From Candidatus Tayloriibacteriota bacterium (GTDB lineage: Bacteria; Patescibacteriota; Minisyncoccia; Phycocordibacterales; PALSA-1337), in assembly GCA_052034805.1 (NCBI GenBank), contig JBPOID010000005.1:50984-114983 (forward strand): DNA of 64,000 nucleotides, given 5' to 3'. The notes below the pieces were generated by a model that saw nothing but the letters and a program-made list of their open reading frames with translations, was not told where the DNA came from and ran no database searches. Each line of letters opens with the position of its first letter. The stretch's first letter is position 1. Shown piece after piece: positions 4,292 to 64,000 of the stretch. The position numbers and the translations under genes were made by a program.

Positions 4292-4478
4292 TTTCTTTCC
4301 TCTTTCTTGTTTTTGTTGTTGTTTACTTATTCACAAAATCTACTCTATATATAGTATCATAATAAATACTATATGTCAATATGACTATGGGCACATTCAA
4401 CCTCTTGGTGCATTTACTTGCTGAACTAGCCATAATACACTAATAACTTTATATCTATTATGTATAAATTTTATTTAT

Positions 4479-4523
4479 AAAAAATTAAACCCCCAAGTCT
4501 TGCGGACTTGAGGGTAAAAGTGG
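4479..4523 (-). terminator. intrinsic terminator, copy 2 of the identical 45 bp element
   Basis: Exact repeat of 3404..3448, lying immediately 3' of the next minus-strand gene. Confidence 0.65.
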
Positions 4524-4540
4524 TTTTGTGATTGTCTCAA

Positions 4541-5203
4541 TCAATGATTGAAATACAACCACGACCATGTCGTGACCATCCATGTGAGCTCATTGCCCGT
4601 CTCACTGATGAATAGTCCGATGTTCTTCTTCGTCCAGCCATCTTGTTTGGCTGTGACTGCGATCTCTATAGCTCTCACAATAACTGTGATATGCCCAATG
4701 ACAAGAGACATTCCAGCCAACCCATCGTTTCGCCCTGCTTTGAATATGCAGTAAGCGATATAGAGTTGTGGAGTGCTCTTAACAATAATGGACATTAAGC
4801 CTCTATTGATCGGCTCGACGAAAGTTTCCATCACAGAACCTTTTGATCTTACAATCATAAGGACAGTGAGAGATGCGATAACCAGAAGTGTTACCAATGT
4901 ATCACTTTTCGTCCAGTATCCCTTTAGAGAAATAATGACGAACATAGTGGCCCATAGTAACAACCAGTTGGCATATACAAGAGTGACTTGCATAGCCTTT
5001 CGACTGCCTGAATCCCAATAAGCACTGAGAGCCAGGAAGAAATTAATTGTGACGAAGATCGAACAGAGCATAGACCATGTGATGGTCATGCCAGTCGTCG
5101 TTGTGAATGATCTGTGTATCTGCGGGATGCTGAAGCACCACGCCATAATGATCTGGAACCAGAAAAGCAGGTCCCCGATCATATTTTTGTTTTTATTAGA
5201 CAA
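4541..5203 (-). CDS. PQ-loop-repeat-like polytopic membrane protein
   Basis: About 7 TM segments; two PQ motifs (SIPQIHRSF and STPQLYIAY) in positions consistent with the two PQ-loop repeats; GC-richer composition. Confidence 0.4.
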   Translation of the reverse strand: MSNKNKNMIGDLLFWFQIIMAWCFSIPQIHRSFTTTTGMTITWSMLCSIFVTINFFLALSAYWDSGSRKAMQVTLVYANWLLLWATMFVIISLKGYWTKSDTLVTLLVIASLTVLMIVRSKGSVMETFVEPINRGLMSIIVKSTPQLYIAYCIFKAGRNDGLAGMSLVIGHITVIVRAIEIAVTAKQDGWTKKNIGLFISETGNELTWMVTTWSWLYFNH

Positions 5204-25611: not shown

Positions 25612-25697
25612 TGGTGCGCCGGGCTGGACTCGAACCAGCGATGGCCAATGGCCGCTTGATTTACAGTCAAGTGTAATAGCCGCTATACGACCGGCGC
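25612..25697 (-). tRNA. tRNA-Tyr (anticodon GTA), CCA encoded
   Basis: Acceptor gcgccgg/ccggcgc, anticodon loop CTGTAAA, a long variable arm, T-loop TTCGAGT, and a 3' ACCA. Confidence 0.8.
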
Positions 25698-26314
25698 AAA
25701 TATTTACTCCTATATGAGTCTATCATCTTTTTTATTTCTAGCAAGAGTTTCTTATCATGATAACGTATATGTATTAACCCATACTTCATTTTTCTTCCAT
25801 CAGTTTTATAATCTTTTCTTACATATGGTTTAATAAATTGTTTATATGAAATATTTGTACACTTACTCCAAAAATCAATCAATTTATTTATATTCTGATC
25901 AGAATAACAATACAATAATACACGAAATTTACTTTCGTCTAATATGTAATTATTTCTCAAGAATCTAAGAAATAATAAAATCATATCGACATCACTATTA
26001 GCAAAATCAATTAATTTAGCGGGATTTTTATTATCACCTTTATAACCTTCTCCCCAATAAAGCATAGCACCTATAGCTGAAAGTTCATTTGAATTTTTAT
26101 TTAATTTTCTTATAGAAAATGATGGCTTCTTATTCTCAAATCTCATTTTCTGTTCTTCTTTTAATGTTCTTCTAGATAAATTATTCTTTCTCATAAAGTA
26201 TGCAACACAATCTAGAGAAACCTTCAATTCTTTAGCAATAGATTTCATACTATATTTTTTTATATAGTAAAGTTTTTTAACTAACTCAAGTTTTGATTGA
26301 GAAATTTTAGCCAT
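25667..26314 (-). CDS. HTH-containing protein with a LAGLIDADG-like box (homing-endonuclease-like?); paralog of 63583..64000
   Basis: N-terminal HTH-like segment (SMKSIAKELKVSLDCV) and a GAMLYWGEGYKGD box. The last 10 codons are read from the 5' part of tRNA-Tyr. Confidence 0.4.
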   Translation of the reverse strand: MAKISQSKLELVKKLYYIKKYSMKSIAKELKVSLDCVAYFMRKNNLSRRTLKEEQKMRFENKKPSFSIRKLNKNSNELSAIGAMLYWGEGYKGDNKNPAKLIDFANSDVDMILLFLRFLRNNYILDESKFRVLLYCYSDQNINKLIDFWSKCTNISYKQFIKPYVRKDYKTDGRKMKYGLIHIRYHDKKLLLEIKKMIDSYRSKYLRRSYSGYYT

Positions 26315-26392
26315 ATAATAATTATATATACCAAATAATACAAGTCAAAGGACACTGTACAGAAAACACAGTCAATTTACTAAATAACAATT

Positions 26393-62885: not shown

Positions 62886-63425
62886 CTAGTTACATTTTAT
62901 ATCTTCAACATTTTGACTTTCTATTGAAGCAAACTCATCTGGTTTGTTACTAAGATTAATAATACCTTTAGTTTCAACTAATGAACAAGTATTATTATAA
63001 TTCTTATAAGAATACTTAAAATTATATGGATATTTTATAGATTTATTTGGAGTAATCCTTTCATCATAATCCAAAGAGATATTACTTTGCATTCCAGGAC
63101 CAAATATCATATTCAGATAAGGTTTTTGAGTATCAATAGGTATATTATTTATATAGAAATCTTTAATAGTAAAATCTTTAGCTGGTGTTTGTCCACTATT
63201 CTTAATATTTATATAAAATAAAACTCTATCTTTAATTACCACACCCTCCATTCTTCCTATGTATAAATAAGCTCTCAATCTAATAAATTCTTCACTTCTT
63301 TGTTGATTAATGATTGAGTAAGTTTGGCATATTGCTATTATCGCAAAGATAGCCATCACAATTGAAACAAATAGTTGAATTAACTCAATTGGAAGTTTTT
63401 TTGAAAAATCAATAAAAGCATTCAT
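62886..63425 (-). CDS. membrane-anchored hypothetical protein
   Basis: The ORF-track N-terminus overlaps tRNA-Glu, so I trimmed it to the internal ATG (MNAFIDFSKK...). One TM, then a beta-rich domain. Confidence 0.4.
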   Translation of the reverse strand: MNAFIDFSKKLPIELIQLFVSIVMAIFAIIAICQTYSIINQQRSEEFIRLRAYLYIGRMEGVVIKDRVLFYINIKNSGQTPAKDFTIKDFYINNIPIDTQKPYLNMIFGPGMQSNISLDYDERITPNKSIKYPYNFKYSYKNYNNTCSLVETKGIINLSNKPDEFASIESQNVEDIKCN

Positions 63426-63428
63426 TTG

Positions 63429-63500
63429 TGACCCTACAGAGAATCGAACTCTGATTAATTGATTGAAAACCAATTGTCCTAACCATTAGACGATAGGGCC
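63429..63500 (-). tRNA. tRNA-Glu (anticodon TTC)
   Basis: Acceptor ggcccta/tagggtc (one G.U pair), D-arm TCGTCTAATGGTTAGGAC, anticodon loop TTTTCAA, and T-loop TTCGATT. Confidence 0.75.
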
Positions 63501-63582: not shown

Positions 63583-64000
63583 ATGGGTTCAAATATACAC
63601 TTAAAAAAGAAAGCTATATCTCTACGTAAGAAAGGTATGAGTTATAATAATATAAGAAAATCCTTAGGAATAAAATCAAAAGGCACTCTTAGTTATTGGT
63701 TTAAAAATATAGAATTTTCTAAGAAAACTAAAGAATTATTAGAAAAGAATAATAGAATCGCACATGAGAAGGGTTTGTTTAATGCTAATAGAGATAGAAA
63801 AATAAAAATAGATAGAGAGAATAATGATGCATATATTAATGGGATAAAACTTATAAATTCAATCTCTAAAAATGAATTACTCTTAATAGGTACATCATTA
63901 TATTGGGCAGAAGGAACAAAATCAGAAAAAATTAATCCGGCACTTAATTTCAGTAATTCTGATCCATTAATGGTTTCAGTGTATATGAAATTTTTACGTG
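63583..64000 (+). CDS. HTH/LAGLIDADG-like protein, paralog of 25667..26314 (3' end runs off the window)
   Basis: Manual translation gives MGSNIHLKKKAISLRKKGMSYNNIRKSLGIKSKGTLSYWFKN...LIGTSLYWAEGTKSEKINPALNFSNSDPLMVSVYMKFLR. This parallels ...AMLYWGEGYKGDNKNPAKLIDFANSDVDMILLFLRFLR of the paralog. Confidence 0.4.
   Translation, partial: MGSNIHLKKKAISLRKKGMSYNNIRKSLGIKSKGTLSYWFKNIEFSKKTKELLEKNNRIAHEKGLFNANRDRKIKIDRENNDAYINGIKLINSISKNELLLIGTSLYWAEGTKSEKINPALNFSNSDPLMVSVYMKFLR

What the first reader, a model, noticed from the sequence alone, without database searches (positions are those of the whole stretch)
25612..26314. HTH/LAGLIDADG-like protein whose reading frame terminates inside tRNA-Tyr
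The 215 aa ORF has an N-terminal HTH-like segment and a GAMLYWGEGYKGD box reminiscent of the LAGLIDADG catalytic motif (L-x-G-x-x-D/E-G). Its last 10 codons are supplied by the first 31 nt of tRNA-Tyr on the same strand. A paralog sits next to tRNA-Glu at the window end. Homing-endonuclease-like genes parked against tRNA genes are a recognised signature of selfish elements.
Basis: partly seen in the sequence, partly recalled or inferred. Interest (0 to 1): 0.5.

Follow-up and report, generated by a model that had tools for sequence, protein, structure and literature searches.

The report
Selfish nuclease-like gene glued to tRNA-Tyr
A small DNA-binding, nuclease-like gene sits flush against the start of the tyrosine tRNA gene; it belongs to a very large, unnamed family in which each branch is attached to its own tRNA gene in tiny bacteria and giant phages, and it behaves like a mobile selfish gene.

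Summary
ORF 25667-26314 (-) is 215 aa and ends 31 nt inside tRNA-Tyr(GTA) 25612-25697 (-).

This is not chance. In 76 of 80 related genome loci the homologue abuts tRNA-Tyr on the same strand, and in 56 of those the stop codon lies inside the tRNA.

The family is one branch of a superfamily of about 5,500 clusters at 50% identity. Each clade sits immediately upstream of a different tRNA gene (Tyr, Trp, Gln, Arg, Lys, Gly, Phe, Met, Ser, Val and others). Members also lie inside tRNA arrays of large viral contigs.

The window-end paralogue belongs to tRNA-Ser(cga), just beyond the window, not to tRNA-Glu.

Close relatives (ClpB 82-91% identical) have the same ClpB/tRNA-Tyr site empty. One has it filled by a canonical LAGLIDADG gene with the same overlap.

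One pair of genomes shares a recently transferred gene cassette.

The tRNA-Tyr promoter lies inside the ORF's 3' end.

Best reading: a free-standing homing-endonuclease-type selfish gene targeted to the 5' flank of a tRNA gene. Nuclease activity is untested.

The parts
25667..26314 (-). 215-aa ORF: HTH plus LAGLIDADG-like protein, tRNA-Tyr branch of the superfamily
   Evidence: ORF; 405 homologues, none with a Pfam domain; AF2 pLDDT 92; dN/dS 0.06-0.18 in the family
26180..26308 (-). N-terminal helix-turn-helix domain (aa 3-45)
   Evidence: Weak HTH hits for this protein. HTH_23, HTH_SB, HTH_38 and HTH_28 hits in up to 38 of 51 superfamily members. Three helices, 6-43, in the model.
25697..26101 (-). 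C-terminal LAGLIDADG-like domain (aa 72-206); its last codon ends on tRNA position +1
26039..26062 (-). LYWGEGYK box (aa 85-92): the end of the first helix of the domain, with invariant Y86, W87, E89, G90 and K92
   Evidence: Invariant in 51 members of all subfamilies. The helix spans aa 75-90 in the model.
25612..25697 (-). tRNA-Tyr(GTA), the partner gene
   Evidence: ARAGORN. The same partner is found in 76 of 80 related loci.
25667..25697 (-). 31-nt overlap: nine sense codons plus the stop codon are read from the tRNA acceptor stem and D arm
   Evidence: In 56 of 76 related loci the stop also lies inside the tRNA. C-terminal tails across the family are translated tRNA 5' ends.
26321..26348 (-). 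Promoter-like site P1, TTGACT-16-TATAAT. Its -10 box ends 6 nt before the ATG, and there is no Shine-Dalgarno sequence, which implies a leaderless mRNA.
   Evidence: A -10 box 5-8 nt before the ATG occurs in 34 of 50 family genes against 87 of 352 control ORFs.
25717..25744 (-). Promoter-like site P2, TTGCTA-16-TAGACT, inside the ORF (codons L191-S200). Its -10 box ends 19 nt before tRNA +1. This is the tRNA-Tyr promoter.
   Evidence: the same sequence stands in front of tRNA-Tyr in relatives that lack the gene (L195, L196). An embedded promoter scoring at least 10 occurs in 28 of 77 family loci against 13-17 of 536 control windows.
63583..64000 (+). N-terminal 139 codons of a paralogue (228 aa in full) of the tRNA-Ser(cga) branch, cut by the window end
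   Evidence: The full gene and tRNA-Ser(cga), 28 nt after its stop, are seen in L081. Its closest relatives also precede tRNA-Ser(cga).

Best explanation
The ORF is a free-standing homing-endonuclease-type selfish gene. It has colonised the DNA immediately 5' of the tRNA-Tyr gene in a Patescibacteria (CPR) genome.

What the sequences show:
- The protein has an N-terminal HTH and a divergent single LAGLIDADG-like domain.
- That domain is expected to act as a dimer, because natural tandem-fused versions exist.
- The gene has its own promoter-like site placed for a leaderless mRNA.
- Its reading frame runs through the tRNA-Tyr promoter and leader and stops inside the tRNA.
- The whole superfamily is organised as one protein clade per tRNA species.
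- The site is present/absent among close relatives and can hold a canonical LAGLIDADG gene instead.
- The gene cassette has moved laterally between genomes.

What is inferred:
- The protein recognises the conserved tRNA gene sequence and cuts alleles that lack the gene, near the 5' boundary of the tRNA.
- Repair from an occupied allele then copies the cassette in.
- The position is tolerated because anything upstream of tRNA +1 is removed by RNase P.
- Complete loss is constrained because the tRNA promoter lies inside the gene's 3' end.
- Where the stop codon lies inside the tRNA, RNase P cleavage of read-through transcripts would leave a message without a stop codon and so limit expression.
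For: tRNA association:
- tRNA-Tyr follows on the same strand in 76 of 80 loci. Three exceptions are contig ends and one is an intron-split tRNA-Tyr.
- The control rate for other ORFs in the same loci is 14 of 503.
- Superfamily clades map one-to-one onto Tyr, Trp, Gln, Met, Lys, Arg, Ser, Val, Gly and Phe tRNAs.

Fold and motif:
- E89-G90 at the helix end, plus K92, N106 and D108, are invariant across subfamilies.
- Single-chain tandem duplicates exist.

Mobility:
- Relatives with ClpB 82-91% identical have an empty ClpB/tRNA-Tyr site: L195, L197, L200, L201.
- L199 carries a canonical HTH plus double-LAGLIDADG gene (LAGLIDADG_3, E = 1.2e-13) at the same site, with a 38-nt overlap on the tRNA.
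- L017 and L020 share a tract of about 700 bp at 85-100% identity. It covers the intergenic region, the gene and the tRNA 5' end. ClpB is about 75% identical and the downstream DNA is unrelated.
- In that pair the focal gene has dS 0.415. The flanking genes are saturated or at 2.9.
- Identity to flanking genes is otherwise discordant. For L025 and L008: ClpB 99%, c2 96%, c3 88%, focal gene 65%.
- Thirty relatives lie in IMG/VR viral contigs, almost all inside dense tRNA arrays and often abutting a tRNA.
- A high-GC tandem version abuts tRNA-Gln.

The gene is functional: dN/dS is 0.06-0.18.

Promoters.

Precedent: T4 SegB is a homing endonuclease encoded in a tRNA cluster and recognises the T-psi-C motif of tRNA genes (PMC2330249).
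Against: - No nuclease activity, cleavage site or homing event has been observed. Everything rests on comparative sequence analysis of MAGs and metagenome contigs.
- No LAGLIDADG HMM matches any member.
- The gene is intact, under purifying selection and syntenic with ClpB in about 45 loci. That fits a host-useful gene as well as an active selfish one.
- No decayed copies were found in empty tRNA-Trp spacers.
- It is unclear how an occupied allele would be immune if the recognised sequence lies in the unchanged tRNA gene.
- The direction of the indel is unresolved. The empty site in L195 still reads LLEIDKMLDSYRSTL*, so it may be a deletion remnant rather than an ancestral state.
- The viral nature of the IMG/VR contigs was not checked. 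No relative was found in deposited phage genomes.
Confidence: 0.65

Rival explanations
1. Domesticated DNA-binding regulator. In this reading the protein is a catalytically idle LAGLIDADG-derived transcription factor, comparable to WhiA. It binds the promoter region of its own gene and/or of the adjacent tRNA and tunes tRNA expression. The paralogues would be dedicated regulators of individual tRNA genes.
For: - There is an HTH domain.
- The family is under strong purifying selection.
- ClpB-gene-tRNA-Tyr synteny is conserved.
- The tRNA promoter is embedded in the gene.
- Non-Tyr subfamilies carry a palindrome around the -10 box that looks like an operator.
Against: - Close relatives do without the gene.
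- A canonical LAGLIDADG endonuclease gene replaces it at the same site.
- The cassette transfers laterally.
- Members occur in viral tRNA arrays and in convergent orientation to the tRNA.
- The acidic residue at the helix end is invariant. From my own knowledge of the WhiA structures, WhiA has lost the catalytic acids.
- Autorepression does not exclude a nuclease. I-TevI is both, also from my own knowledge.
Confidence: 0.17
2. Accessory host-beneficial nuclease, for example an anti-phage or anti-mobile-element guard of tRNA loci. It would spread horizontally because it is useful, not by homing.
For: - Patchy distribution and lateral transfer.
- A nuclease-like fold.
- Presence in phages, which often carry counter-defence or competition genes.
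Against: - No match to any PADLOC defence model.
- It is a single small gene with no partner genes.
- Its insertion point is fixed exactly, relative to one tRNA per clade. Site-specific homing predicts this; defence islands do not.
Confidence: 0.1
3. RNA-level factor. The protein would bind or process the precursor of the adjacent tRNA, in the way some LAGLIDADG proteins act as maturases. The gene would be linked to the tRNA because they are co-transcribed.
For: - Same-strand abutment, with a stop codon often inside the tRNA.
- Some members lie in inter-tRNA spacers with no room for a promoter.
- Group I introns split the partner tRNA in three loci.
Against: - The tRNA has its own promoter inside the ORF, so co-transcription is not required.
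- In some phage, high-GC and CPR loci the gene abuts the tRNA in convergent orientation.
- Relatives process the same tRNA without the gene.
- The HTH types that match are DNA-binding ones.
Confidence: 0.05

Closest known systems
LAGLIDADG homing endonucleases (I-DmoI, I-CreI/I-CeuI type; intein endonuclease domains)
   Same: - They are the best structural matches.
- The first helix ends in an invariant acidic residue followed by Gly, then a strand, with a conserved Lys nearby.
- Single-domain and tandem-fused forms both exist.
- A canonical member occupies the same genomic site in a close relative.
   Different: - No LAGLIDADG Pfam or PDB profile detects the family.
- The motif is LxGAxLYWxEGxK, about two residues longer and with bulky invariant Tyr-Trp.
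- The topology has an extra helix between the third and fourth strands.
- The protein is fused to an N-terminal HTH.
- The gene is not in an intron or intein. It is free-standing, in front of a tRNA gene.
Phage T4 SegB (GIY-YIG free-standing homing endonuclease in the tRNA gene cluster)
   Same: - It is a selfish endonuclease gene lodged among tRNA genes, and its recognition site includes a conserved tRNA-gene motif, the T-psi-C stem-loop (PMC2330249).
- Relatives of the window protein sit inside viral tRNA arrays.
- Non-Tyr subfamilies carry T-psi-C-like GGTTCRATT palindromes in front of their start codon.
   Different: - The nuclease fold is different (GIY-YIG).
- SegB is a single gene in one phage group.
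- The family here has thousands of clusters and one clade per tRNA species. It is mostly chromosomal in Patescibacteria, and its reading frame is physically fused to the tRNA promoter and 5' end.
WhiA (DUF199), a LAGLIDADG-derived transcription factor with an HTH
   Different: - WhiA has two degenerate LAGLIDADG domains, a C-terminal HTH and no catalytic acids, and it is a vertically inherited core gene (my own knowledge of the family).
- Here there is one domain, the HTH is N-terminal, the Glu is invariant, and the distribution is patchy with lateral transfer.
LAGLIDADG homing endonuclease genes in rRNA introns, and group I introns in tRNA genes, of CPR/Patescibacteria
   Same: Same host phylum and the same theme: selfish elements lodged in genes for stable RNAs (PMC11270868 listed; PMC13011429).
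   Different: - Those sit inside introns, and self-splicing restores the RNA.
- This gene sits outside the mature tRNA, in its 5' flank. The tRNA intron paper does not mention it.

Membership tests
LAGLIDADG endonuclease superfamily | Sequence match to the LAGLIDADG_1/2/3 or WhiA-LAGLIDADG profiles | tested here: not met
   - Pfam scans of the window protein and of 51 diverse members give only HTH hits.
- The family profile searched against PDB sequences gives only HTH hits.
- hhalign of the superfamily alignment against the canonical LAGLIDADG protein of L199 aligns only the HTH.
LAGLIDADG endonuclease superfamily | alpha-beta-beta-alpha-beta-beta-alpha fold, with the motif helix at the subunit or domain interface | tested here: inconclusive
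- Unrelated two-layer folds score 5-6 in the same search.
- Foldseek found nothing with E below 0.02.
- The model has an extra helix.
LAGLIDADG endonuclease superfamily | The motif helix ends in a conserved catalytic Asp or Glu followed by Gly | tested here: met
   E89-G90 end helix 75-90 and are invariant in 51 members of all subfamilies. A catalytic role is inferred, not shown.
LAGLIDADG endonuclease superfamily | Acts as a homodimer, or as a single chain with two tandem domains | tested here: met
   Natural proteins of 396-576 aa carry two copies of the domain or of the whole unit: P0298, P0305, P0307, P0332, P0333, P0340 and P0368. Dimerisation of the 215-aa form was not modelled.
LAGLIDADG endonuclease superfamily | Metal-dependent site-specific cleavage of double-stranded DNA | not testable with these tools
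   This needs purified protein and a substrate.
Homing endonuclease genes (functional class) | Presence/absence polymorphism at one fixed site among close relatives | tested here: met
   ClpB/tRNA-Tyr site:
- occupied in the window and in about 45 other loci;
- empty in L195, L197, L200 and L201, where ClpB is 82-91% identical;
- holding other occupants in L196, L198 and L199.

tRNA-Trp site: occupied in 7 loci and empty in the rest.
Homing endonuclease genes (functional class) | A gene history decoupled from its flanks (lateral transfer with short co-converted flanks) | tested here: met
   - L017 and L020: focal gene dS 0.415, flanks saturated or 2.9. The high-identity tract ends inside the tRNA.
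- Discordant identities in other pairs.
Homing endonuclease genes (functional class) | Target lies in, or next to, a highly conserved gene | tested here: met
   The gene always abuts a tRNA gene, with one clade per tRNA species. The actual recognition sequence is unknown.
Homing endonuclease genes (functional class) | Preferential inheritance (super-Mendelian copying into empty alleles) | not testable with these tools
   This needs crosses, co-culture or time-series population data.
WhiA-type regulators | Two degenerate LAGLIDADG domains without catalytic acids, a C-terminal HTH, and status as a vertically inherited core gene | tested here: not met
   Here there is a single domain, an N-terminal HTH and an invariant Glu. 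Presence is patchy and the gene transfers laterally.

The most novel reading that the evidence does not exclude
Patescibacteria and large phages host a previously unrecognised guild of tRNA-gene-specific homing endonucleases.
- There would be one lineage per tRNA species, using the pre-tRNA 5' flank as an intron-free safe harbour, because RNase P trims whatever lies upstream.
- Their reading frames would have fused with the promoters of essential tRNA genes. The selfish gene then cannot be deleted cleanly and in part controls tRNA transcription.
- Their HTH plus divergent LAGLIDADG modules would be a natural library of programmable binders of tRNA-gene sequences.
Probability: 0.35. Interest if true: 0.85.

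Novelty: new variant of a known kind. Interest (0 to 1): 0.72.

Why it matters
If the reading is right, this gives a name and a likely role to a protein superfamily that current annotation leaves blank. It has about 5,500 clusters at 50% identity and no Pfam, NCBIfam, PHROG-function or PADLOC assignment.

It would matter in several ways:
- It shows that free-standing homing-endonuclease-like genes can be a regular feature of tRNA loci in very small bacterial genomes, not only in phage tRNA clusters or introns.
- It reveals an unusual overlap: coding sequence, the promoter of an essential tRNA, and the tRNA itself share the same bases.
- It offers many protein clades, each tied to a known and highly conserved DNA sequence. 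That makes target prediction, biochemical testing and possibly meganuclease engineering straightforward.
- It warns annotators that ORFs ending inside tRNA genes in these genomes are real genes and not artefacts.

Tried and rejected
Searches that found nothing useful:
- Pfam, NCBIfam and PDB-sequence searches of the window protein, and the family profile against PDB sequences, gave only weak HTH hits.
- The PHROGs 'HNH endonuclease' hits cover only the HTH region, aa 10-65. I did not take them as evidence for an HNH nuclease.
- Foldseek against PDB found nothing significant. The afdb50 library was unavailable.
- PADLOC gave no defence-system match.
- tblastn of three family proteins against deposited phage genomes (INPHARED) gave no match.
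- A search for decayed copies in empty spacers upstream of tRNA-Trp found none.
- hhalign and BLASTP between the family and the canonical LAGLIDADG protein of L199 were not significant beyond the HTH. A collinear but non-significant alignment pairs IGAMLYWGEGY with FGIML--GDGH.
- Five literature searches found no description of this family or of this arrangement.

Ideas considered and dropped:
- That the gene is strictly vertically inherited. This is contradicted by the empty sites and by the dS result.
- That the tRNA depends on co-transcription from the gene's own promoter. This is contradicted by the promoter embedded in the ORF.
- That the window-end paralogue is associated with tRNA-Glu. 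Its partner is tRNA-Ser(cga).
- That D-stem differences in tRNA-Tyr separate occupied from empty alleles. They do not do so consistently.
Full report
**1. The observation**

The window holds a 215-aa ORF at 25667..26314 on the minus strand. tRNA-Tyr(GTA) lies at 25612..25697 on the same strand. The two overlap by 31 nt. The G of the Leu206 codon is tRNA position +1. Nine further sense codons (RRSYSGYYT) and the stop are read from the acceptor stem and D arm.

A second, related gene starts at 63583 (+) and runs off the window. tRNA-Glu lies 82 nt upstream of it on the other strand.

**2. The overlap is a family trait, not chance**

The protein has 405 homologues in the large protein collection. 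All are about 205-217 aa, none has a Pfam domain, and the named ones come from Patescibacteria MAGs.

Their C-terminal tails fall into a few classes that read like translated tRNA 5' ends.

A genome scan returned 80 loci at 44-75% identity.
- In 76 of them a tRNA-Tyr(GTA) follows on the same strand.
- Three exceptions are contigs that end right after the gene.
- The fourth, L068, has a tRNA-Tyr split by a group I intron.
- The stop codon lies inside the tRNA in 56 of 76 loci. Otherwise it lies 0-17 nt upstream, with one case at 58 nt.
- The last conserved residues (Lys-Tyr/Phe) always abut tRNA +1.
- Other ORFs in the same loci have such a neighbour in 14 of 503 cases, against 73 of 78 for the family.

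**3. A superfamily with one clade per tRNA**

The window-end paralogue is 228 aa in full, recovered from L081. It is 35% identical to the first gene over the C-terminal domain. It is followed 28 nt later by tRNA-Ser(cga), beyond the window. tRNA-Glu is only its upstream neighbour.

Its own family has 339 hits. A metagenome scan with that family's alignment gave 80 loci at 28-68% identity. Nearly all are followed within -44..+50 nt of the stop by a same-strand tRNA. The partners are Ser(cga), Val(gac), Gly(gcc), Phe(gaa), Arg(tct), Arg(tcg), Pro(tgg), Gln(ttg), Lys(ctt), Met(cat), Glu and Trp.

In a neighbour-joining tree of 173 members the clades correspond to the partner tRNA.

Second copies in the Tyr loci sit in front of tRNA-Trp. 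Modules can also stand in tandem, for example gene-Gly then gene-Gln in L111, and gene-Thr then gene-Tyr in L023.

Three apparent exceptions have an intron-split tRNA. A few loci truly lack a downstream tRNA (L104, L107, L128, L135, L099).

A profile search finds 5,550 clusters at 50% identity with E up to 0.001, and 3,173 with E up to 1e-10. The window itself holds only these two copies.

**4. What the protein is**

The N-terminus is an HTH.
- Hits for the window protein are weak.
- HTH_23, HTH_SB, HTH_38 and HTH_28 match up to 38 of 51 superfamily members.

The C-terminal domain has no sequence match anywhere.

The AlphaFold models are confident: pLDDT 92 for the whole protein and 94 for residues 70-209.

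- These scores are modest, and unrelated alpha/beta sandwiches reach 5-6.
- Foldseek found nothing significant.

Independent pointers to a LAGLIDADG relationship:
Y86, W87, E89, G90, K92, N106, D108, W149 and G179 are invariant across all subfamilies.
- High-GC members read L(A/I)GAIAYWCEGAK, closer to the classical motif.
- Single-chain tandem duplicates of 396-576 aa exist. This is the evolutionary route known for LAGLIDADG enzymes.

I treat 'LAGLIDADG-like' as probable, not proven.

**5. Evidence for mobility**

(a) Synteny is real but not strict.
- About 45 loci have c3-c2-ClpB-gene-tRNA-Tyr.
- About 17 have the gene inside a Thr-[gene]-Tyr-Thr-Trp tRNA cluster.
- Where the ClpB block is inverted, the gene stays with the tRNA.

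(b) Relatives chosen by ClpB similarity, not by the gene, show the site in different states.

| Locus | ClpB identity to window | What lies between ClpB and tRNA-Tyr |
|---|---|---|
| L195 | 91% | only 40-100 nt, no gene |
| L197 | 86% | only 40-100 nt, no gene |
| L200 | 84% | only 40-100 nt, no gene |
| L201 | 82% | only 40-100 nt, no gene |
| L196 | 87% | a DUF3800 gene |
| L198 | 86% | an unrelated 131-aa ORF |
| L199 | 86% | a 276-aa canonical LAGLIDADG gene |

The L199 protein has an N-terminal HTH and two canonical LAGLIDADG motifs (Pfam LAGLIDADG_3 E = 1.2e-13; LAGLIDADG_2 E = 8.6e-5). It overlaps tRNA-Tyr by 38 nt and ends in the same kind of tRNA-derived tail. L196, L198 and L199 come from one assembly.

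(c) Gene history is decoupled from the flanks.
- L025 and L008: ClpB 99%, c2 96%, c3 88%, focal gene 65%.
- L017 and L020 show the reverse. The focal gene is 89% identical with dS 0.415. ClpB and c2 are saturated and c3 is at 2.9.
- In that pair DNA identity is 85-100% from the ClpB/gene spacer to the first bases of the tRNA. It is about 75% in ClpB and under 50% downstream.
- That is a recently transferred cassette.

(d) Thirty relatives lie on IMG/VR viral contigs of 11-527 kb with GC 0.22-0.58.
- Almost all are inside dense tRNA arrays, with up to 26 tRNAs in the stretch held.
- Many abut a tRNA, in the same or in convergent orientation.

(e) A high-GC tandem version ends 8 nt from a convergent tRNA-Gln.

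(f) The gene is not decaying: dN/dS is 0.06-0.18.

**6. Expression anatomy**

Upstream promoter-like site, P1.
- A near-consensus TTGACT-16-TATAAT site ends 6 nt before the ATG, with no Shine-Dalgarno sequence.
- A -10 box 5-8 nt before the ATG is present in 34 of 50 family genes. Of these, 21 are perfect TATAAT.
- The figures for control ORFs are 87 of 352, with 20 perfect.
- This suggests a leaderless mRNA.

Promoter-like site embedded in the ORF, P2.
- TTGCTA-16-TAGACT lies at 25744..25717, coding L191-S200. Its -10 box ends 19 nt before tRNA +1.
- The same sequence stands in front of tRNA-Tyr in relatives that lack the gene.
- Occupied and empty alleles are alignable from exactly the -35 box onwards.
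- The L195 spacer still reads LLEIDKMLDSYRSTL*.
- Embedded promoters scoring at least 10 of 12 occur in 28 of 77 family loci, against 13-17 of 536 control windows. At 11 or more the counts are 16 of 77 against 1 of 536.

So the tRNA has its own promoter, and that promoter is part of the gene's last helix.
- Transcripts from P1 would read into the tRNA. This is inferred.
- RNase P would then remove the stop codon in the 56 loci where it lies inside the tRNA. This is also inferred.

In other clades (Gln, Gly, Arg, Met, Phe) a palindrome AATYGAAC...GTTCRATT brackets the -10 box and ends at the ATG.
- It occurs in 24 of 89 genes, against 23 of 381 control ORFs.
- Its arm resembles the T-psi-C loop motif.
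- That motif is the conserved core of the SegB recognition site (PMC2330249).
- This could be an operator that mimics the target. I-TevI is known, from my own knowledge, to repress its own gene in this way. This point is speculative.

**7. Mechanism proposed**

Shown:
- the gene's architecture;
- its fixed position relative to a specific tRNA;
- polymorphic occupancy of the site;
- lateral transfer of the cassette;
- replacement by a canonical homing endonuclease gene;
- promoter sharing with the tRNA.

Inferred:
- The protein dimerises.
- It binds the conserved tRNA gene sequence through the HTH and the beta-sheet surface.
- It cuts gene-less alleles near the tRNA 5' boundary, and is then copied in by repair.
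- The 5' flank is a safe harbour, because RNase P defines the mature 5' end whatever lies upstream.
- Fusion with the tRNA promoter makes clean loss difficult.

The direction of the indel at empty sites (ancestral state or deletion remnant) is unresolved.

**8. Comparison with known systems, and novelty**

The closest known systems are:
- LAGLIDADG homing endonucleases, for fold and motif logic;
- T4 SegB, for a free-standing endonuclease gene in a tRNA cluster that recognises tRNA-gene DNA;
- WhiA, for a LAGLIDADG fold combined with an HTH used as a regulator;
- the intron-borne LAGLIDADG genes of CPR rRNA.

None of five literature searches found this family or this arrangement. The recent survey of tRNA introns in Patescibacteria does not mention it.

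I rate it a new variant of a known kind. The family is very large, unannotated and divergent. It has a clade-per-tRNA organisation and a three-way overlap of coding sequence, tRNA promoter and tRNA.

**Caveats**
- There is no biochemistry.
- The data are from MAGs and metagenomes.
- Structural similarity is modest.
- The viral status of the IMG/VR contigs was not checked.

Noticed in passing
window 63426-63500 (also L081:5312-5926): The ORF listed as 62886..63473 (-) probably starts at the ATG at 63426 (MNAFIDF...). That is 2-3 nt after the 3' end of tRNA-Glu(ttc) 63428-63500 (-). A membrane-protein-like gene therefore begins directly at a tRNA 3' end with no room for a leader.
   Followed up: partly
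L068:4305-4600; L093:3690-4020; L098:1470-1800: The tRNA that follows the family gene is split by a group I intron. In L068 it is tRNA-Tyr: its 5' half starts right after the stop codon, and the intron is at 4337-4552. ARAGORN misses these tRNAs.
   Followed up: partly
L112, L124, L140, L113, L101, L104, L155 and others: the 60 nt before the ATG: Non-Tyr subfamilies carry a palindrome AATYGAAC...(25-32 nt including TATAAT)...GTTCRATT that ends at the start codon. It occurs in 24 of 89 genes against 23 of 381 control ORFs. The arm resembles the T-psi-C loop motif GGTTCRATT. It may be an operator or a mimic of the target.
   Followed up: partly
window 26355-26362: The palindrome CTGTACAG lies a few nt upstream of the -35 box of the gene's promoter-like site. 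A TGT(R)TAYA box recurs at the same place in many ClpB-context loci.
   Followed up: no
L199:5274-6150: A canonical HTH plus double-LAGLIDADG gene (276 aa, Pfam LAGLIDADG_3) lies between ClpB and tRNA-Tyr in a close relative. It overlaps the tRNA by 38 nt and ends VGTQAVNEDRL*.
   Followed up: yes
L195:5222-5296; L196:6150-6223: Relatives without the gene keep its last roughly 16 codons as the tRNA-Tyr promoter. L195 reads LLEIDKMLDSYRSTL* and L196 reads LLEVEKLVDS*.
   Followed up: yes
P0298, P0305, P0307, P0332, P0333, P0340, P0368; L193:1115-2791: Proteins of 396-576 aa, most with a high-GC-type composition, are tandem duplications of the unit. The P0307 gene ends 8 nt from a convergent tRNA-Gln(ttg). 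The host organisms are unknown.
   Followed up: partly
L163-L192 (IMG/VR contigs): Relatives at 23-39% identity sit inside dense tRNA arrays of large putative phage genomes, for example L169 with 26 tRNAs in 6 kb. Several abut a tRNA in convergent orientation. No relative was found in deposited phage genomes.
   Followed up: partly
L156:2321-3582; L136:2327-3576: Two family genes stand in tandem in front of tRNA-Lys(ctt). The first is followed by the second gene, not by a tRNA.
   Followed up: no
L067:934-1664: A Trp-clade copy on the minus strand ends exactly at the 3' end of tRNA-Trp on the plus strand. This is a convergent arrangement within Patescibacteria.
   Followed up: partly
L001-L080, all ORFs: About a quarter of ordinary ORFs in these Patescibacteria loci (87 of 352) also have a TATAAT-like box 5-8 nt before the ATG. 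This hints that leaderless transcripts may be common in these genomes.
   Followed up: no
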